From the NCBI RefSeq assembly GCF_001457595.1, contig NZ_LN831039.1, positions 4,080,001 through 4,112,000 on the forward strand: 32,000 nt of DNA, in the 5' to 3' direction. This document shows, piece after piece, positions 3,484-24,351 of the stretch (position 1 is the first letter of the stretch; the number at the start of each line of letters is the position of its first letter). The notes under the pieces are model-generated. The model was given only the letters and a program-made list of their open reading frames with translations, ran no database searches and was not told the DNA's origin. This DNA comes from Mycolicibacterium smegmatis. GTDB taxonomy: Bacteria > Actinomycetota > Actinomycetes > Mycobacteriales > Mycobacteriaceae. The position numbers and the translations under genes are program-made.

Positions 3484-3503
3484 GGCTAGCTGTACTGCTA
3501 GCC
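3484..3503 (-). other. Perfect 7-bp stem / 6-nt loop hairpin (GGCTAGC-TGTACT-GCTAGCC) overlapping the stop codon of the hibernation-factor gene
   Basis: Read directly from the sequence. It sits between the rafH-like stop (3498-3500) and the start of the downstream WS/DGAT gene. No U-tract follows. Confidence 0.3.
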
Positions 3504-4304
3504 GTCCGCAGGGGTGATCAACCCGTAGTGGCCGTCGTAGCGGCGATATATGACGCTGGCACGGCCCTCGGCCGCATCGATGTAAAACAGGAACGGCAGA
3601 CCCAGCAGACCGAGACGCTCGACGGCGTCGCGCTGGGTCAGACATGGCGCCGGATGGGTACTGATCGTGATCGGTTTCTCGAACGGACTCAGTTCGTCGG
3701 CAGGTACGGGGATCACGAGTACCAACCGATAGCCCGTGGGGCCGCCCTTGTACAGAACCGCGGCGAATCCGGTGCCCTTCTCGGTGAAGAGATGGAAATC
3801 GTAGTCGAGCATCTCCATCTCGAGCGCGGCCTCGTCCACGGTGCACGGCACCATGCTGAACGACTTGCGACGAATGATCCTGCGCTCCTCGGGCGGACGG
3901 GGAAAGTAGCCCGGGCGCCGCGCCGGTTCGGATTCGTGGCGCCACTCACGCCCGGCCTCGGCGGGCACACCGCCACGGCGCGCCTCCCAGTGCTCGGCAA
4001 TGCGCTCCAGTCGCGACCGCAGCCGTGCTTCCAGTCGATCTACCGCCTCGCGCGCGTTCACACCCTCGACCTGAGCGCGCACCTGCCGACCATTGACATC
4101 GAGGTTGGCTTGCGCGATGACCGGCCGTTCGACCGCGGGGTCACCGTGCCTGGTGAGCCTCACACGCGCGTGAAGCACCGGTCTGTGTGCGCGCCTGGAG
4201 AGCCGACCGATCTTCTCGCGCGCATACTCGGCGGCACCGGGAAGCTCCCCGTCGGTCGACACATCGACGTCCATGACCTCTGGTAGCCCTGTTCGCTGAC
4301 GCAT
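3498..4304 (-). CDS. rafH: Long ribosome hibernation factor of the Rv0079/RafH type (S30AE/HPF-like N-domain plus C-terminal domain)
   Basis: 268 aa. The C-terminal block MLDYDFHLFTEKGTGFAAVLYKGGPTGYRL...LGLPFLFYIDAAEGRASVIYRRYDGHYGLITP matches my recollection of Mtb Rv0079 (MDYDVHLFTD...LPFLFFTD...LLYSRYDGNLGLITP). A DosR-like box lies upstream. Confidence 0.85.
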   Translation of the reverse strand: MRQRTGLPEVMDVDVSTDGELPGAAEYAREKIGRLSRRAHRPVLHARVRLTRHGDPAVERPVIAQANLDVNGRQVRAQVEGVNAREAVDRLEARLRSRLERIAEHWEARRGGVPAEAGREWRHESEPARRPGYFPRPPEERRIIRRKSFSMVPCTVDEAALEMEMLDYDFHLFTEKGTGFAAVLYKGGPTGYRLVLVIPVPADELSPFEKPITISTHPAPCLTQRDAVERLGLLGLPFLFYIDAAEGRASVIYRRYDGHYGLITPADG

Positions 4305-4336: not shown

Positions 4337-4356
4337 ACAGGGCCGAAAGTCACCTC
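4337..4356. promoter_or_regulatory. DosR-box-like palindrome ACAGGGCCGAAAGTCACCTC (core GGGCC-GAAA-GTCAC)
   Basis: Lies in the 104-bp gap upstream of the rafH-like gene. The centre is 42.5 bp from the ATG at 4304. The half-sites are weaker than the consensus TTSGGGACTWWAGTCCCSAA. Confidence 0.45.
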
Positions 4357-6893: not shown

Positions 6894-6913
6894 GTCGGGA
6901 CTTTCGTCCCTAT
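6894..6913. promoter_or_regulatory. DosR box GTCGGGACTTTCGTCCCTAT (perfect half-sites GGGAC-TTTC-GTCCC)
   Basis: Lies in the intergenic region. The centre is 70.5 bp upstream of the ATG at 6974. It shares GACTTTCGTCCCTA with the box at 17139. Confidence 0.8.
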
Positions 6914-18539: not shown

Positions 18540-19523
18540 ATGCCTGCACCGGCGGTGCCCCAGTCAGTGATCACCGAGGCCGTCGGGCTGGCATGCCGGG
18601 CACCGTCGCTGCACAACAGCCAACCGTGGCGGTGGGTCGACCACGGAACCTCGGTCGACCTGTTCCTCGATCATCACCGCATCGTGCGGTCGTCCGACAG
18701 CTCGGGACGCGAAGCACACATCAGTTGCGGTGCAGCCCTTGATCATCTCCGTGTCGCGATGGCCGCCGCCGGCTGGGTGATTCATGTGGATCGGTTCCCC
18801 AACCCCAACAACCGCGAGCATCTCGCGAACATCCAGTTCAGCCCGGTCGCTCATGTCACCGACGCCATGCGCGACCGGGCGTCCGCGATAACCCGTCGCC
18901 GGACCGATCGACTCCCGCTGCACCCACCGGCGCATTGGGACACCGTGGCCCCCTTGGTGAACGCTGCCATCGACCACGAGGCCGTCCGGTTCGTGATGCT
19001 GGCCGACGATGCACGCGGCAGGCTTGCCGAGGCCTCACAACTCACCGAATCGCTTCGCCGATACGACGAGTTCTATCATCGCGAATTGCAATGGTGGACA
19101 GCGAATGTGCGGCATTCCGACGGTGTACCCGCCGAGGCCCTCGTGTCGTCGCCAGAAGCCGAGCGTGTCGGGGTGAACCGAGCGTTTCCGTCCCGTGAGC
19201 ACGCCGAACGCCGTCCGGATGTGGCACGCGACGAAGCCAGGATCGCCGTGCTGATCACCCCCGAGGACACTCCCCGCGACGCGATCGCCTGCGGTGAAGC
19301 ACTTTCGACGATTCTGCTGGAATGCACCATGGCAGGCCTGGCCACATGCCCGCTGACCCACATCACCGAGATGCCGGAAAGTCGTCGCATCATCCTGGAT
19401 CTGGCAGGGACCACCGGGATACCTCAGGTACTCATCAGGATCGGTTCCGCACCCCCGGTCGACGACGTGCCACCGGTGACGCCGCGTCGGTCACTGGCCG
19501 AGGTCTTGGAAGTCGATCGCTGA
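18540..19523 (+). CDS. Acg-family nitroreductase-like protein, copy 2
   Basis: 327 aa with [23 protein letters not shown] and LIRIG...TPRRSLAEV. It starts 42 bp after the USP stop with no box between them, so it is probably co-transcribed with the USP gene. Confidence 0.85.
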   Translation: MPAPAVPQSVITEAVGLACRAPSLHNSQPWRWVDHGTSVDLFLDHHRIVRSSDSSGREAHISCGAALDHLRVAMAAAGWVIHVDRFPNPNNREHLANIQFSPVAHVTDAMRDRASAITRRRTDRLPLHPPAHWDTVAPLVNAAIDHEAVRFVMLADDARGRLAEASQLTESLRRYDEFYHRELQWWTANVRHSDGVPAEALVSSPEAERVGVNRAFPSREHAERRPDVARDEARIAVLITPEDTPRDAIACGEALSTILLECTMAGLATCPLTHITEMPESRRIILDLAGTTGIPQVLIRIGSAPPVDDVPPVTPRRSLAEVLEVDR

Positions 19524-20432
19524 GTGCTGCGATCCGTCTGCCCGGACCGCAACCGGGGAGCGGTAGAGTGCCGCGCCTGCGACGGGACCCGCAGCTCCGG
19601 CGACCAGCAGAACAGGGCGAGTGTCCACCGGACCGCTATCACCACCTCCGCTGTCCCGGCGGCGCAGGGCCGCGGGTAGGGCCGCGGTGTGCGTTCTCGG
19701 ATCGGCCGCCACCACCAGATGCGCCGGTGGGACACCCAGTTTGGCGGCCAGCGCGGCTCGGAATCGTTGCCGAGCCGGCGCAACGCAGATCGCGACGTCG
19801 GAAAGTGTCAACGAGGACTCCGCCAGACAGCTCGATGCCGCCAGCGCACATACACCCGCCAAATCGACATCGAACGCCGCGGATTCCTGGAATCGCAGCA
19901 CATTTCGGCCATCTCTGAACCCCACACGGGCGCAGAATCCCTCTCCGTCTGTCCTGGCGGACCATCGCACCGGGCCGAGGCCGTCGTCACCGTCGTTCCA
20001 GCGGCACAACAACGCCGACCCGACGGGTGAGTACGGGAAATGCTTGCTCATACCGAATCCCGGGTTGGCGTCGCTGGCTACGATCAGAGCCGCCTTGATG
20101 ATCCCGGCCCGAAGGAAACCGTCGACGATCTGCAGTGCGGTCAGTACCCCGCACTCGCCGTTGGCGACGTCGAACGAGAACGTACCGTGCTCACCGGTAT
20201 GTGGATCGTGGAGATTCGCACCGATCATCTCCTGGATCAACGCCGCCAGCGCGGGCTCGCCCAGGTTTCTGTCCCGGTAGATGCCGGCGTTGATCAGGAG
20301 ATCGATACTGTCGGGATCGCATCCGGCCCGATGCAGACAACGCTTCGCCGCAGCAACAGCCAGACGCAACGCACTGTGACGGTTACGCCAACCAGCCTCG
20401 GAAATCTCGACGCGTTCAATGATCGTTCCCAT
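19491..20432 (-). CDS. KAS III (FabH)-like thiolase-fold protein with a degenerate catalytic triad
   Basis: 313 aa. It aligns with the upstream KAS III gene, but the triad positions read Glu, Pro and His: FDVANGECG vs FDISNACAG, ICVAPARQ vs VITHQTSA, DPRTHTAAL vs DRYGNTAST. It overlaps the upstream gene by 17 bp. Confidence 0.7.
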   Translation of the reverse strand: MGTIIERVEISEAGWRNRHSALRLAVAAAKRCLHRAGCDPDSIDLLINAGIYRDRNLGEPALAALIQEMIGANLHDPHTGEHGTFSFDVANGECGVLTALQIVDGFLRAGIIKAALIVASDANPGFGMSKHFPYSPVGSALLCRWNDGDDGLGPVRWSARTDGEGFCARVGFRDGRNVLRFQESAAFDVDLAGVCALAASSCLAESSLTLSDVAICVAPARQRFRAALAAKLGVPPAHLVVAADPRTHTAALPAALRRRDSGGGDSGPVDTRPVLLVAGAAGPVAGAALYRSPVAVRADGSQHSAIDFQDLGQ

Positions 20433-21516
20433 AGCGTTTCACCAGATCCTCGTCAACGGTCAGCAAGATGATGCCGATCTCCAGCCCGGAGGCCAGCGCG
20501 ATCAATGCGACGGTTTCGCCGGGTTCGATGCGGCGGGCTTCCAGTTCCTCGATCAGCGCCACGGTGTGCGTCGTCGACGCGGTGTTGCCGTACCGGTCGA
20601 CGGTGATGACCGCGTCGTGACGCGGGTGATCGCCGAATTCGGCTGCCATCACGGCCATCCCCTTCTTGATCGCCCGCGCCGAAGTCTGGTGCGTGATGAC
20701 ATGGTCGATGTCATCGATGGAAATGCCCGCGGTGTCGAGCACTTCGCGCAGGAGTACCGGGGTGTTGGTGATCGCGGCGCGGTGAATTGCCCGGGAATCG
20801 GTGAACATGCGGGCACCGGGATCCCTGCCCTTGGGATACGCCAGACACAACCGGCTGTAATCCGCGATCGTGGTGAATCCGGCCAGGGTGATTCCTGATC
20901 CCCCGGCAGGTACGCGTTCGAGCAGCAGGGCCGCGCCCGCGTCACCGAGCGTGAGCGAGGCGAGTTCCTTGCTCAGCACTGTGCGAATGTGTTTGGCGGC
21001 GTTCTGGCCGAGCTGTGAGATGTACTCTCCGCTGACCACCATGCCCCGGGCGACGAGACCCTGCCGGATCCAGGTGTTGAGCACCATGACGCCGGTGAGC
21101 ATCCCCGCGCACGCGTTGGAGATGTCGAAGGTCATCGCGTCCCGCGCACCGATCGCATGCGCGACGTCGCTGCTCATCGTCGGCTCAAGGTACTGCGTGA
21201 GCCCACCATGGAATTTCGTGATACTGCAATTGATCACCACCTCGACCGAGTCGGCTGATCGGTCGGCCTTCTCGAGGCAGTCCAGCGCGGCTTTCGTCGC
21301 GAGACTGTAGGAGTCGTCCTCGCCCAGCGATACTCGCCGCTCGCGGATCCCGGTCAACCGCTCCAGGTCGATATGTGTGTTGTGCCTGGTCTCCGACATC
21401 AGCTCGCTCGTGGTCAGGCGCGTCTTCGGAAGGCAACGGCCCGCGGCGGCGATCCGGGTGCGAAATGGCGACGACGCTTCATCCGCGGCGTCCATCACCA
21501 GCCAGTGCGGTCCCAT
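20416..21516 (-). CDS. 3-oxoacyl-ACP synthase III (FabH/KAS III) family condensing enzyme with an intact Cys-His-Asn triad
   Basis: 366 aa with FDISNACAGM (Cys), DHVITHQTSARAI (His) and DRYGNTASTTH (Asn), plus a FabH-like N-terminus (IAAAGRCLPKTRLTTSELMSE...LTGIRERR). The start is at 21516, or at the ATG at 21495. Confidence 0.85.
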   Translation of the reverse strand: MGPHWLVMDAADEASSPFRTRIAAAGRCLPKTRLTTSELMSETRHNTHIDLERLTGIRERRVSLGEDDSYSLATKAALDCLEKADRSADSVEVVINCSITKFHGGLTQYLEPTMSSDVAHAIGARDAMTFDISNACAGMLTGVMVLNTWIRQGLVARGMVVSGEYISQLGQNAAKHIRTVLSKELASLTLGDAGAALLLERVPAGGSGITLAGFTTIADYSRLCLAYPKGRDPGARMFTDSRAIHRAAITNTPVLLREVLDTAGISIDDIDHVITHQTSARAIKKGMAVMAAEFGDHPRHDAVITVDRYGNTASTTHTVALIEELEARRIEPGETVALIALASGLEIGIILLTVDEDLVKRYGNDH

Positions 21517-21548
21517 TCGAGAAGGATGCGTCGGCAGCTCTCGCTCAT

Positions 21549-21568
21549 GCAGGGCCGTTGGTCACCGC
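21549..21568. promoter_or_regulatory. DosR-box-like palindrome GCAGGGCCGTTGGTCACCGC (core GGGCC-GTTG-GTCAC)
   Basis: Lies in the divergent gap between the KAS III and GH65 genes. It has the same variant half-sites as the box at 4337. The centre is 42.5 bp from the ATG at 21516. Confidence 0.4.
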
Positions 21569-21666
21569 GGCGAAGTCGGAAAGACACTCGCCCGTGGGTC
21601 CCCGCTGTGTCATGGTCGGCACGTGGCCCGTTGGAGCATCACACCGATGCCGCTCAGGACGACGTC

Positions 21667-24351
21667 GTGACCGACGACGAAGACCGGCGGCCGATAGCCG
21701 ACCTACCGGACGCTCTGGATCACTTCGATGAGATCCGTGACCTGCTCGCGTTTCGCAACCCCGCGTCCCTGCCCGTGTTCATCGGTAATCCCGCCGACGA
21801 CTCCGCATTCCGGACGGTGCGCCGTGACGGTATCGGCATCGTCGTCGTCACACACGCCGAAGACGAGAAGAGGTCGACCACGGCGACCTTCCGGCTCGAC
21901 AGTCCCGGCGCTGCAGCCACTTTCCGGCACCGGCTGGCGCAGGAGGCCGATCGGCCCACGTCGATCGATCCGGGATGGGTGCTGACCTTCGACGGATACG
22001 ATCCGGCGAACGAACGGTTCAGGGAAGCCTTGTGCACCCTGGGAAACGGCTACTTCGCGACACGCGGTTGCGCGCCCGAGGCGCCGGCAGGCCGGTTCCA
22101 CTATCCGGGCACCTACGTCGCCGGCATCTACAACCGGCTCACCGACGAGATCGCCGGCCATCGCACCGACAACGAGAGCCTGGTCAATCTGCCGAACTGG
22201 CTCGCCCTGACATTCCGGTTCGACGACGGCCCGTGGCTCGACGTCGACGACACCGACCTGCAGTCCTACCAGCAGACCCTCGATCTGCGTCGGGGGGTGC
22301 TCACTCGGCAATTCCGCTTCTGCGACAAGGCCGGACGTGTCGCCACCGTGACCCAGCATCGACTGGTCGCCATGCACCTCCCACACCTCGCGATGCTGCA
22401 GACGATGGTCACCGCAGAGAACTTCTCGGGCACCGTCGAGTTCCGGTCCGAGATCGACGGCGCGGTGACCAACAGCCTGGTGGAGCGCTATCGTGACCTG
22501 TCGAACGTTCACCTCGTCGGACACGAAAAGCGTTCGCTGACCGCCGATTCGCTGTTGCTGACCGCACATACGTGCCAGTCTCACATCCGAGTGGCAGTGG
22601 CGCTTCGCAACACAGTGTGGCGCGGCGACTCGCCTGCCCGGGCCGACTACACGTTGGTCGACGACCGTCGGCGTGCTGGTCACGTCATCAGCTGCTACAT
22701 CGAAGCGGGTCAGCCGGTCACCCTGGAGAAGGCCGTGTCCGTCGCGACGAGTCGCGATCACGCGACCTGTGAAGCCGCCAACGAAGCCACGCGCCGCCTG
22801 CAGTGGGTCGACCGCTATCACGATGTGCAGCAGGCACACACCACGGCGTGGGGCCAGCTGTGGGAGCGTTTCGACGTCGATATCGGCGGCAGGACCGACG
22901 AACTGCGCACCGTGCGCCTGCACCTTCTCCACACCCTGCAGACGCTGTCACCGCACGTTCGTGATCTCGACATCGGGGTTCCCGCTCGTGGTCTCACCGG
23001 TGAGGCATATCGCGGGCACATCTTCTGGGACGAACTGTTCGTCGCCCCTGTGGTCAGCCTGCGCCGACCGGCGCTCACCCGTGCGCTACTGGCCTACCGT
23101 CATCGCCGCCTACCCGAGGCTCGCCGCGCGGCCCGTGACGCAGGTTTCACCGGGGCGATGTTCCCCTGGCAGTCCGGGAGCAACGGCCGCGAGGAGAGTC
23201 CGGCACTTCACCTCAATCCGCGTTCGGGCCGCTGGAATCCGGACCCGAGTGCCCTGGCGCATCACGTGGGACTTGCTGTCGCCTACAACATCTGGCAGTA
23301 CTACCAGGTCACCGACGATCTGGAGTACCTGATCGACTACGGCGCCGAGACGTTGTTGGAGATCGCCCGTTTCTGGGCAGGTCTGGCGCTGTTCAGCCGA
23401 GAACGTGGACGCTATGTGATCCCCGGGGTGATCGGTCCCGACGAGTTCCACACGGGCTATCCCGGACGGCTCTACGACGGCATCGACAACAACGCGTACA
23501 CCAACGTCATGGCGGTGTGGGTGATCCTGCGGGCCCTCGACGCGCTGGATGCCATGCCCCTGGCCGACCGAACCGCGTTGCTGGAAAGGCTGGGACTGCA
23601 CGGGGACGAGCTCGACAAGTGGGAAGACGTCAGCCACCGCATGTTCGTGCCATTCCACAACGGCGTGATCAGCCAGTTCGAGGGTTACGAGTCGCTGGTC
23701 GAACTGGATTGGGACCGTTATCGGCATGAGTACGGGAACATTCAGCGACTCGACCGCATCCTGGAGGCCGAGAACGACAACGTGAACCGCTACAAGGCTT
23801 CCAAACAGGCCGACGTATTGATGCTGTTCTATCTGTTGTCCGCCGACGAGATACGGGAACTGCTGGCGCGTCTGGGTTACCGATTCACTCCGAAGCAGAT
23901 CCCAGAGACCGTCGACTACTACCTGTCACGCACCTCGCACGGATCGACGCTCAGCGCCGTCGTCCACTCCTGGGTTCTGGCACGCGGCCACCGCGAGCAG
24001 GCCATGGAGTTCTTTGTGCAGGCCCTGAATTCCGATGTGGCCGACATCCAGGGCGGCACAACAGCCGAAGGCATCCATCTGGCCGCGATGGCCGGAAGCG
24101 TCGACCTGCTGCAGCGGTGCTTCACCGGCTTGGAAACCCGCGGCGACCGACTGGTTCTCGGCCCGTGCTGGCCAGAAGCGTTGGGAGTACTGTCCTTCCG
24201 GATGTACTACCGCGGTCACAACTTGCATCTACGTGTCAGCGGCCGAACCGCGTCCGTGATCTCCGCCATCGGCTCCGCGGCGCCCATCACCCTCGAATGC
24301 CGCGGCCGCACCTGGCAACTCTGCGCCGGCACCACGATCGACGTCGGCTGA
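21667..24351 (+). CDS. Glycoside hydrolase family 65 phosphorylase (trehalose/kojibiose/maltose phosphorylase family) with a vestigial N-terminal trehalose-phosphatase (HAD) stub; related to the C-terminal part of Rv2006/OtsB1
   Basis: GH65 N-domain (FREALCTLGNGYFATRG), catalytic-acid context GVIGPDEFH, and phosphate-site block YKASKQADVLML. The start is uncertain. I prefer the GTG at 21667 (AGGA 7 nt upstream). The ORF is open from 21373, but that stretch overlaps the KAS III gene and the promoter box and looks non-coding; the ATG at 21526 is another candidate. Confidence 0.85.
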   Translation: MTDDEDRRPIADLPDALDHFDEIRDLLAFRNPASLPVFIGNPADDSAFRTVRRDGIGIVVVTHAEDEKRSTTATFRLDSPGAAATFRHRLAQEADRPTSIDPGWVLTFDGYDPANERFREALCTLGNGYFATRGCAPEAPAGRFHYPGTYVAGIYNRLTDEIAGHRTDNESLVNLPNWLALTFRFDDGPWLDVDDTDLQSYQQTLDLRRGVLTRQFRFCDKAGRVATVTQHRLVAMHLPHLAMLQTMVTAENFSGTVEFRSEIDGAVTNSLVERYRDLSNVHLVGHEKRSLTADSLLLTAHTCQSHIRVAVALRNTVWRGDSPARADYTLVDDRRRAGHVISCYIEAGQPVTLEKAVSVATSRDHATCEAANEATRRLQWVDRYHDVQQAHTTAWGQLWERFDVDIGGRTDELRTVRLHLLHTLQTLSPHVRDLDIGVPARGLTGEAYRGHIFWDELFVAPVVSLRRPALTRALLAYRHRRLPEARRAARDAGFTGAMFPWQSGSNGREESPALHLNPRSGRWNPDPSALAHHVGLAVAYNIWQYYQVTDDLEYLIDYGAETLLEIARFWAGLALFSRERGRYVIPGVIGPDEFHTGYPGRLYDGIDNNAYTNVMAVWVILRALDALDAMPLADRTALLERLGLHGDELDKWEDVSHRMFVPFHNGVISQFEGYESLVELDWDRYRHEYGNIQRLDRILEAENDNVNRYKASKQADVLMLFYLLSADEIRELLARLGYRFTPKQIPETVDYYLSRTSHGSTLSAVVHSWVLARGHREQAMEFFVQALNSDVADIQGGTTAEGIHLAAMAGSVDLLQRCFTGLETRGDRLVLGPCWPEALGVLSFRMYYRGHNLHLRVSGRTASVISAIGSAAPITLECRGRTWQLCAGTTIDVG

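What the first reader, a model, noticed from the sequence alone, without database searches (positions are those of the whole stretch)
19491..21568. Overlapping pair of KAS III-like genes, one active and one catalytically dead, behind a DosR-like box; possibly a PqsBC-style heterodimeric condensing enzyme
The 366-aa protein retains the FabH triad (Cys in FDISNACAG, His in THQTS, Asn in YGNTAS; E. coli FabH Cys112/His244/Asn274). The 313-aa protein is encoded immediately downstream with a 17-bp overlap. It aligns over the same fold but has Glu, Pro and His at those three positions. Active/inactive FabH-like pairs are known to work as obligate heterodimers; Pseudomonas PqsC/PqsB is one example. 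I know of no such pair assigned to the mycobacterial dormancy response. Its location between Acg-type and GH65 genes, and a box 42.5 bp from its ATG, suggest a hypoxia-induced lipid or small-molecule condensation step. It might be linked to the two WS/DGAT genes in the island.
Basis: partly seen in the sequence, partly recalled or inferred. Interest (0 to 1): 0.65.

Follow-up and report, generated by a model that had tools for sequence, protein, structure and literature searches.

The report
LstAB/NltAB-type two-subunit fatty-acyl condensing enzyme
Two overlapping genes in a Mycobacterium smegmatis dormancy-gene island most likely encode a known kind of two-subunit enzyme that joins two fatty acyl chains head to head, and its steady placement among dormancy genes in many mycobacteria and rhodococci points to an undescribed dormancy lipid.

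Summary
Two KAS III-fold genes lie on the minus strand, 366 aa (20416-21516) and 313 aa (19491-20432), with a 17-nt overlap. The first has Cys136/His276/Asn311. The second has none of the three.

The PqsBC comparison is not the closest one. Both proteins are homologues of NltA/NltB, the heterodimeric OleA-type thiolases of nocardiolactone synthesis, and match what is published for LstA/LstB (lipstatin). The large subunit has the Glu-Cys-His-Asn set of head-to-head (non-decarboxylative) Claisen condensing enzymes. The small subunit is not simply dead. Its Glu59-Pro60 is invariant in 98 diverse relatives and aligns with NltB Glu57, whose mutation, like that of LstB Glu60, abolishes activity.

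All 77 orthologous loci with enough upstream DNA keep the gene order and the 17-nt overlap. Of these, 69 lie next to DosR-regulon-type genes. The window's DosR-like box is weak on its own, but similar boxes recur in orthologous promoters (27/49 against 2/49 in controls).

No OleC/OleD-type partner genes are present, so the product is unknown. I found no direct evidence of hypoxic induction.

Verdict: a new member of a known enzyme kind in a new physiological setting. Interest is moderate.

The parts
20416..21516 (-). Large catalytic subunit, 366 aa, LstA/NltA-like OleA-type thiolase. Probably MSMEG_3953.
   Evidence: Passes Pfam ACP_syn_III and ACP_syn_III_C. 41% identical to NltA over residues 20-160 and 119-283. 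100% identical to the M. smegmatis protein P0163 except for its frameshifted C-terminus.
19491..20432 (-). Small partner subunit, 313 aa, LstB/NltB-like. N-terminally truncated, no Cys-His-Asn triad, invariant Glu59.
   Evidence: Matches NltB at 51%, 42% and 28% identity in three blocks. Model md692ec4945a4 has a KAS III fold.
20416..20432 (-). 17-nt overlap between the start codon of the small-subunit gene and the stop codon of the large-subunit gene (ATGGGAACGATCATTGA); likely translational coupling.
   Evidence: The overlap is exactly 17 nt in 77/77 orthologous loci. Consensus TATGGGCACnnTnATTGA.
21109..21111 (-). Codon of Cys136, the acyl-accepting nucleophile of the large subunit.
   Evidence: FDISNAC aligns with OleA FDVANAC(143). 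Invariant in 120 orthologues.
21184..21186 (-). Codon of Glu111 (YLEP) in the large subunit, equivalent to OleA Glu117.
20689..20691 (-). Codon of His276 in the large subunit.
20584..20586 (-). Codon of Asn311 in the large subunit.
20256..20258 (-). Codon of Glu59 (NLGEPALAA) in the small subunit, the proposed catalytic base donated in trans.
   Evidence: 100% invariant, together with Pro60, in 98 diverse relatives. Aligns with E. coli FabH Phe87 and with NltB Glu57 in VEPAV. LstB E60A and NltB E57A/Q are inactive.
21552..21565 (.). DosR-like palindromic box GGGCCGTTGGTCAC, centred 42.5 nt upstream of the ATG. It lies in the 114-nt divergent intergenic region shared with the GH65 gene.
   Evidence: It has the same half-sites and the same 35-nt spacing to the ATG as the box before the HPF/RafH gene, which the Table S1 read marks as a Dos-regulon member, citing Berney et al. 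2014. Near-identical boxes occur in orthologous promoters.
21523..21528 (-). Possible -10 hexamer CATCCT, 7-12 nt upstream of the ATG. It would give a leaderless mRNA. This is inference only.
   Evidence: Read from the sequence. No transcription-start data were found.

Best explanation
The two genes encode the two subunits of an LstAB/NltAB-type heterodimeric OleA-like thiolase.

Proposed mechanism. The 366-aa subunit takes one fatty acyl-CoA onto Cys136, with His276 and Asn311 forming the oxyanion site. The 313-aa subunit pairs with it through the usual KAS III dimer interface. It inserts the loop carrying Glu59 into the partner's active site. There Glu59 removes the alpha-proton of a second acyl-CoA. 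The result is a non-decarboxylative, head-to-head Claisen condensation giving a 2-alkyl-3-keto acid. That product either loses CO2 to form a long-chain ketone or is processed further. The strictly conserved 17-nt overlap couples translation of the two subunits so that they are made together.

Regulation. The pair is most likely part of the DosR (dormancy) regulon. In M. smegmatis it would be driven by its own weak box at -42.5. In slow-growing mycobacteria it would be the tail of an Acg-led operon.

Shown: homology, the residue pattern, synteny and the recurrence of boxes. Inferred: the heterodimer, the chemistry, the substrates and hypoxic induction.
For: Homology:
- The large subunit is 41% identical to NltA and shares its 6-residue insertion before [YM][LM]EP and the SNACAGMLTG motif. 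The small subunit matches NltB at 51%, 42% and 28% identity in three blocks, with VEPAV aligned to GEPAL.
- OleA (3ROW) is the top PDB hit on the Glu-Cys segment, with YLEP aligned to OleA Glu117 and Cys136 to Cys143.

Residue pattern:
- The E111/C136/H276/N311 spacing matches NocG, PpyS and OleA (Table 1).
- All four residues are invariant in 120 orthologues.
- In the small-subunit family only Glu59-Pro60 is 100% invariant among polar residues, and the Cys position is never Cys.

Published biochemistry:
- LstB E60A is inactive, and LstA and LstB are soluble only together.
- NltB is truncated and lacks the triad. NltB E57A/Q are inactive, and only co-expressed NltAB condenses acyl-CoAs.

Coupling of the two genes:
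- 77/77 loci keep the gene order and the 17-nt overlap.
- Natural fusions exist in the order active half then partner half: P0371, and the NRPS-fused P0376, P0382 and P0415.

DosR link:
- 69/77 loci have USP, Acg, Rv2004c-like, tgs, pfkB, PPS, GH65 or DosS/R genes within 6 kb, in shuffled orders, in Mycobacterium, Mycolicibacterium and Rhodococcus.
- 27/49 promoters of the pair's own carry a box with at most 2 mismatches, against 2/49 in each of two coding controls.
- 15/23 Acg-led operons carry a box about 67 nt upstream of Acg, against 1/23 in the control.
- The window's box mirrors the HPF/RafH box in sequence and spacing.
Against: - No OleC/NltC (beta-lactone synthetase) or OleD/NltD (reductase) gene lies in the window. 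The neighbours I annotated in two related loci, L010 and L016, held none either. The downstream pathway is therefore unknown.
- The large subunit keeps its own Glu111, so a homodimer is not excluded by sequence.
- The LstA and LstB sequences themselves could not be compared. The NltA/B comparison used OCR-damaged DNA with frameshifts.
- The window's DosR box has 2 core mismatches, and matches of that quality occur at chance frequency in the window.
- MSMEG_3953 is not among the proteins induced by carbon monoxide, although its neighbours MSMEG_3950, 3952 and 3955 are strongly induced.
- No searched paper mentions MSMEG_3953.
- 8/77 loci have no recognisable DosR-type neighbour.
Confidence: 0.72

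Rival explanations
1. PqsBC-style heterodimer. The active subunit condenses an acyl thioester with a small aromatic or keto-acid partner to make a signalling molecule. The second subunit is a purely structural, catalytically inert scaffold.
For: The large-plus-truncated-partner architecture is the same. PqsC and PqsD appear among the PDB hits of the large subunit, and PqsD tops the fold search of the small one.
Against: PqsB is absent from the sequence hits at E<=1 and from the top 50 fold hits. The large subunit keeps Asn311, which, from my own recollection of the literature, PqsC lacks. The partner has an invariant Glu that matches LstB and NltB. There are no pqs-type neighbours.
Confidence: 0.06
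2. An alternative FabH: a decarboxylative KAS III that primes fatty-acid synthesis with acyl-CoA plus malonyl-ACP during hypoxia, for example to feed triacylglycerol synthesis. The small protein would act as a regulatory or stabilising partner.
For: The Cys-His-Asn triad is intact. The best whole-length PDB hits are FabH enzymes. WS/DGAT genes are frequent neighbours, in 31/77 loci.
Against: FabH NCBIfam models score 118-143 bits against cut-offs of 249-292. The Glu at the FabH Phe87 position, in both subunits, is the signature of non-decarboxylative condensers. Identity to NltA (41%) exceeds that to any FabH.
Confidence: 0.1
3. Same chemistry but a different product class and role. The pair would make a pyrone, dialkyl-resorcinol-like or other small signal, as PpyS does. 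Alternatively it would act on carrier-protein-bound substrates, as NocG and the NRPS-fused relatives do, rather than making a storage or envelope lipid from acyl-CoAs.
For: PpyS and NocG share the Glu-Cys-His-Asn set. Distant relatives are fused to C-A-PCP modules.
Against: The closest characterised homologues, NltAB, use free long-chain acyl-CoAs. No carrier protein or adenylating enzyme lies next to the pair in the window.
Confidence: 0.1
4. The pair merely sits in the island and is not DosR-controlled. In M. smegmatis it may be poorly expressed or decaying.
For: The box is at chance level. The protein is absent from the carbon-monoxide-induced proteome. The CP000480 reference has a 1-nt insertion that truncates the large subunit. 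One assembly has a frameshifted small-subunit variant, P0003.
Against: Four other M. smegmatis assemblies have the intact pair. Both proteins keep all family-invariant residues. Boxes are enriched in orthologous promoters and in Acg-led operons. Synteny with DosR-type genes persists through extensive rearrangement.
Confidence: 0.3

Closest known systems
NltA/NltB of Nocardia brasiliensis (nocardiolactone pathway)
   Same: Adjacent genes encode a catalytic subunit with Cys-His-Asn and a truncated partner that lacks the triad but carries an essential Glu (NltB E57). The heterodimer is active only when co-expressed and condenses two long-chain acyl-CoAs head to head. Sequence similarity was measured directly: 41% for the large subunit and 28-51% in blocks for the small one.
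   Different: nltAB sits in nltABCD with a reductase and a beta-lactone synthetase. The authors did not find that strict cluster in Mycobacterium or Rhodococcus. Here the pair stands alone among dormancy-regulon genes, so the end product cannot be a nocardiolactone-type beta-lactone made by neighbouring genes.
LstA/LstB of Streptomyces toxytricini (lipstatin)
   Same: A KAS-III heterodimer. LstA has the triad C128/H271/N305 (here C136/H276/N311; the His-to-Asn spacing is 34 against 35). LstB E60 is essential (here E59). Neither subunit is soluble alone. Counterparts of LstB are reported as widespread and always clustered with an LstA gene.
   Different: The lst cluster adds OleC/OleD-like, NRPS and formyltransferase genes. 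The LstAB substrates are a 3-hydroxy-C14-dienoyl-CoA and octanoyl-CoA.
OleA of Xanthomonas campestris (homodimeric thiolase of olefin synthesis)
   Same: The Glu117/Cys143/His285/Asn315 set is matched by E111/C136/H276/N311. The YLEP and FD[VI][AS]NAC motifs are shared. The Glu acts across the dimer interface.
   Different: OleA is a homodimer with two complete sites. Here one subunit has lost Cys, His and Asn, so only one site can be complete. There are no oleBCD neighbours.
PqsB/PqsC of Pseudomonas aeruginosa
   Same: A heterodimer of a KAS III-like catalytic subunit and a shorter partner without the triad.
   Different: The partner shows no detectable specific similarity to PqsB. The chemistry and genomic context differ.

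Membership tests
LstAB/NltAB-type heterodimeric OleA-like thiolase | Adjacent genes, catalytic subunit first and truncated partner second | tested here: met
   Gene order and the 17-nt overlap are kept in 77/77 loci.
LstAB/NltAB-type heterodimeric OleA-like thiolase | Catalytic subunit has Cys-His-Asn, plus the Glu of non-decarboxylative condensers | tested here: met
   E111, C136, H276 and N311. All four are invariant in 120 orthologues.
LstAB/NltAB-type heterodimeric OleA-like thiolase | Partner is N-terminally truncated and lacks Cys, His and Asn | tested here: met
   The partner starts at about FabH residue 35-40. It has Glu/Thr/Ala at the Cys position, no His at the HQ motif and no Asn at the GNT motif.
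LstAB/NltAB-type heterodimeric OleA-like thiolase | Partner carries an invariant Glu equivalent to LstB E60 and NltB E57 | tested here: met
   Glu59-Pro60 is present in 98/98 relatives. It aligns with the NltB VEPAV motif and with the FabH Phe87 / OleA Glu117 position.
LstAB/NltAB-type heterodimeric OleA-like thiolase | Closer in sequence to characterised members than to FabH or PqsBC | tested here: met
   Met for NltA and NltB. Not tested for LstA and LstB because no sequence was at hand.
LstAB/NltAB-type heterodimeric OleA-like thiolase | Physical heterodimer, active only when both subunits are present | not testable with these tools
   Indirect support only: natural fusions of the two halves and the conserved overlap. 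No multimer prediction was available.
LstAB/NltAB-type heterodimeric OleA-like thiolase | Non-decarboxylative condensation of two acyl thioesters to a 2-alkyl-3-keto acid | not testable with these tools
   Inferred from the residue pattern and from homology.
Ole/Lst/Nlt beta-lactone or olefin pathway (cluster level) | Clustering with OleD-type reductase and OleC-type beta-lactone synthetase genes | tested here: not met
   No such Pfam domains occur among the window's genes or among the neighbours annotated in L010 and L016.
PqsBC | Partner related to PqsB; pqs operon context | tested here: not met
   PqsB is not among the PDB sequence hits at E<=1 or the top 50 fold hits. The neighbours are dormancy genes.
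FabH (initiating KAS III) | Reaches the curated FabH family cut-offs | tested here: not met
   PRK09352 scores 143 bits against a cut-off of 249. TIGR00747 scores 118.5 against 292.
DosR (DevR) regulon | DosR box in the promoter | tested here: inconclusive
   The window's box has 2 core mismatches, a quality found at chance frequency in the window. It copies the HPF/RafH box in sequence and spacing. Boxes are enriched in orthologous promoters: 27/49 against 2/49, and 15/23 against 1/23.
DosR (DevR) regulon | DosR-dependent induction by hypoxia, NO or CO | not tested
   No expression data for MSMEG_3953 were found. It is not listed in a carbon-monoxide proteome in which its neighbours are induced.
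DosR (DevR) regulon | Co-localisation with known regulon genes | tested here: met
   69/77 loci across four genera.

The most novel reading that the evidence does not exclude
[quoted passage not shown] This would make a dormancy-specific neutral lipid. Candidates are a long-chain ketone, or a mycolate-like 2-alkyl-3-hydroxy acid that a co-regulated WS/DGAT esterifies. The reaction would free trapped CoA and store carbon during hypoxia. From my own knowledge of its genome, M. tuberculosis lacks the pair; this was not tested here.
Probability: 0.3. Interest if true: 0.7.

Novelty: new member of a known kind. Interest (0 to 1): 0.5.

Why it matters
The enzyme type is known from two antibiotic-like beta-lactone pathways. 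Here the same two-subunit condensing enzyme appears without the rest of those pathways. Instead it is embedded in the dormancy regulon of a model mycobacterium and of relatives in at least four genera; 284 species-level genomes encode a relative of the small subunit.

I found no paper that links OleA-, LstAB- or NltAB-type enzymes to DosR, and none that mentions MSMEG_3953.

If the regulatory link holds, it predicts an undescribed hypoxia-induced lipid. It also gives a simple test in a tractable organism: delete the genes and compare hypoxic lipidomes.

The analysis also corrects the 'dead subunit' reading. The small protein should be annotated as a catalytic partner that donates Glu.

Tried and rejected
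- PqsBC model: rejected as the closest analogue.
- Shifted-nucleophile idea (Cys94, one residue after the FabH Cys position): rejected. Cys94 is only 81% conserved across the family and is replaced by Ala, Val, Ser or Gly. His248 is likewise 81%.
- Fusion of the small subunit to a WS/DGAT (P0284): it looked like a direct link to triacylglycerol synthesis. It is a singleton on one 2.4-kb contig, so I gave it little weight.
- Expression evidence: I searched main texts for MSMEG_3951-3954 and the supplements of four M. smegmatis studies. Nothing on MSMEG_3953 turned up. The two key papers, Gerasimova 2011 and Berney 2014, are not held.
- M. avium DosR regulon paper: its main text mentions no ketoacyl synthase.
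- L010 upstream pair of 370 and 296 aa: this looked like a second copy of the pair but is a hydrogenase-associated Fe-S/NAD module.
- Fold search of the small-subunit model: it gave only the generic KAS III fold. The Glu59 loop has low confidence in the monomer model.
Full report
**What is there**

The window is Mycobacterium smegmatis DNA.
- The 366-aa product is identical to an mc2 155 protein except at its C-terminus.
- A published primer for MSMEG_3954 maps to 22171-22190.
- The exact 313-aa product is encoded in CP000480 and in other M. smegmatis assemblies.

The region is a DosR-type island. It holds:
- PEP synthase, two WS/DGAT genes, HPF/RafH and several USP genes;
- a DosS/T-like kinase, an Rv2004c-like gene and a DosR-type response regulator;
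- three Acg-type nitroreductases, pfkB and a GH65 gene.

On the minus strand lie a 366-aa gene (20416-21516) and a 313-aa gene (19491-20432). They overlap by 17 nt.

The first gene passes both Pfam KAS III models, and the second falls below their cut-offs. The second still matches FabH-type models and structures, and its model has a KAS III fold.

The large protein has Cys136, His276 and Asn311. The small one has Glu93 at the Cys position and no His or Asn at the other two motifs.

**What it really resembles**

On the segment that carries the nucleophile, the best PDB match of the large protein is Xanthomonas OleA. QYLEPTMSS...FDISNAC aligns with DYLEPSTAS...FDVANAC. This places Glu111 on OleA Glu117 and Cys136 on OleA Cys143.

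The E/C/H/N set and its spacing match those listed for the non-decarboxylative condensers OleA, PpyS and NocG.

The small protein has NLGEPALAA, and its Glu59 aligns with Phe87 of E. coli FabH. The large subunit's Glu111 aligns with the corresponding Phe of B. subtilis FabHA and with OleA Glu117, so all three sit at the same structural position.

I aligned 98 diverse relatives of the small protein, drawn from 551 cluster representatives with E<1e-10. Results:
- Glu59-Pro60 is the only fully invariant polar motif.
- The FabH Cys position is Ala, Gly, Ser, Glu or Pro, and never Cys.
- The neighbouring Cys94 and His248 are each only 81% conserved. They are therefore not a hidden active site.

The literature describes exactly this arrangement.
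- LstA/LstB of lipstatin synthesis form an obligate heterodimer. LstA supplies C128/H271/N305, and LstB E60 is essential. LstB counterparts are 'widely present and always coclustered' with LstA genes.
[quoted passage not shown] NltB E57A and E57Q are inactive. Only co-expressed NltAB condenses two acyl-CoAs.

I translated the NltA and NltB constructs printed in that paper's supplement. The text is OCR-damaged, so the matches break into frames.
- The large protein is 41% identical to NltA. It shares the same insertion before the Glu and an identical SNACAGMLTG motif.
- The small protein is 51%, 42% and 28% identical to NltB in three blocks. GEPAL aligns with VEPAV.

PqsB appears in neither the sequence hits nor the fold hits.

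**Evidence that the two proteins work together**

I fetched 80 related loci from species-level genomes; 284 such genomes encode a relative of the small subunit. In all 77 loci with enough upstream DNA, the large-subunit gene comes directly before the small-subunit gene and the overlap is exactly 17 nt. The overlap sequence is itself conserved.

Distant relatives are fused in the same order. One is a 671-aa fusion from the M. abscessus group. Others sit at the C-terminus of NRPS modules, for example in Nocardia arizonensis.

**Link to dormancy**

Of the 77 loci, 69 have at least one DosR-regulon-type gene within 6 kb. The gene orders differ between lineages of Mycobacterium, Mycolicibacterium and Rhodococcus.

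The window's box (21552-21565, centre -42.5) has two core mismatches. Boxes of that quality occur at chance frequency in the window. Three observations add weight to it:
- It has the same half-sites and the same 35-nt spacing to the ATG as the box in front of HPF/RafH. The Table S1 read marks that gene as a Dos-regulon member, citing Berney et al. 2014.
- Where the pair has its own promoter, 27 of 49 loci carry a box with at most 2 mismatches within 200 nt upstream. Two coding-sequence controls give 2 of 49 each. The boxes differ by lineage: GGGCCGTAAGTCAC in many environmental mycobacteria and GGGACAAGGGTCCT in Rhodococcus.
- In 24 slow-grower-type loci the pair follows an Acg gene after 29-86 nt. 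Of the 23 that could be scanned, 15 have a box about 67 nt upstream of Acg, against 1 of 23 in the control.

These counts are not phylogenetically independent.

Direct evidence is lacking. No searched text mentions MSMEG_3953. The protein is not among those induced by carbon monoxide, although MSMEG_3950, 3952 and 3955 are.

**What remains unknown**

No reductase or beta-lactone synthetase of the Ole/Nlt/Lst type lies nearby. The fate of the predicted 2-alkyl-3-keto acid is therefore open.

WS/DGAT genes are frequent neighbours (31 of 77 loci) and directly follow the pair in several slow growers. They are DosR-regulon genes in their own right, so this is not a specific link. The single fusion of the small subunit to a WS/DGAT is a singleton.

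**Verdict**

Two corrections are needed. The family is LstAB/NltAB (OleA-type), not PqsBC. The small subunit is a catalytic partner, not a dead one.

This is a new member of a known enzyme kind in a setting not described in the literature I could search.

Noticed in passing
window about 20450-20460 (3' end of the 366-aa gene); L085:1916-2980: The mc2 155 reference CP000480 appears to carry one extra C here (GGCATCCATCTTG against GGCATCATCTTG in the window). The extra base is inferred from the two protein sequences. It gives a 354-aa product ending ...EIGIHLADR and removes the 17-nt overlap. The window and four other M. smegmatis assemblies have the intact 366-aa form, as do all 77 orthologous loci. 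This is probably a sequencing error or a lab-strain mutation.
   Followed up: partly
window 4340-4353: The box GGGCCGAAAGTCAC lies 35 nt upstream of the ATG of the HPF/RafH gene (3498-4304, minus strand). Its half-sites and spacing are identical to those of the box before the condensing-enzyme pair.
   Followed up: partly
window 5859, 5930, 6897, 11292, 14569, 17048, 17142, 25416 (start positions): Eight DosR boxes with 0 or 1 core mismatch; the one at 6897-6910 is perfect. All lie upstream of, or in the over-extended 5' ends of, USP, Acg, tgs and pfkB ORFs. Several longest-ORF start codons in the island are therefore probably too far upstream.
   Followed up: no
window 19491-19523: The small-subunit gene and the convergent Acg-type nitroreductase gene (18540-19523, plus strand; MSMEG_3952) overlap by 33 nt at their 3' ends. 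The C-terminal tail of the small subunit (...SAIDFQDLGQ) is shared only with M. goodii and one other close relative.
   Followed up: no
P0415, P0376, P0382 and P0371 (proteins): Relatives of both subunits occur fused as a didomain (active half then partner half). In some they sit at the C-terminus of NRPS C-A-PCP modules (Nocardia arizonensis and metagenomes). One is a stand-alone 671-aa fusion from the M. abscessus group. This suggests a carrier-protein-dependent branch of the family.
   Followed up: partly
window 21517-21630: The GH65 gene (MSMEG_3954) is called with a TTG start at 21631 (906 aa), not the 992-aa longest ORF. This leaves a 114-nt divergent intergenic region. Its single DosR-like box lies 42.5 nt from one start codon and 72.5 nt from the other.
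   Followed up: partly
P0003: One assembly contig encodes a frameshifted 335-aa variant of the small subunit that diverges after residue 243.
   Followed up: no
PMC7064751 supplement: A Mycobacterium obuense 'OleA' (WP_082133371, 26% identical to Xanthomonas OleA) was active on p-nitrophenyl hexanoate when expressed alone.
   Followed up: no
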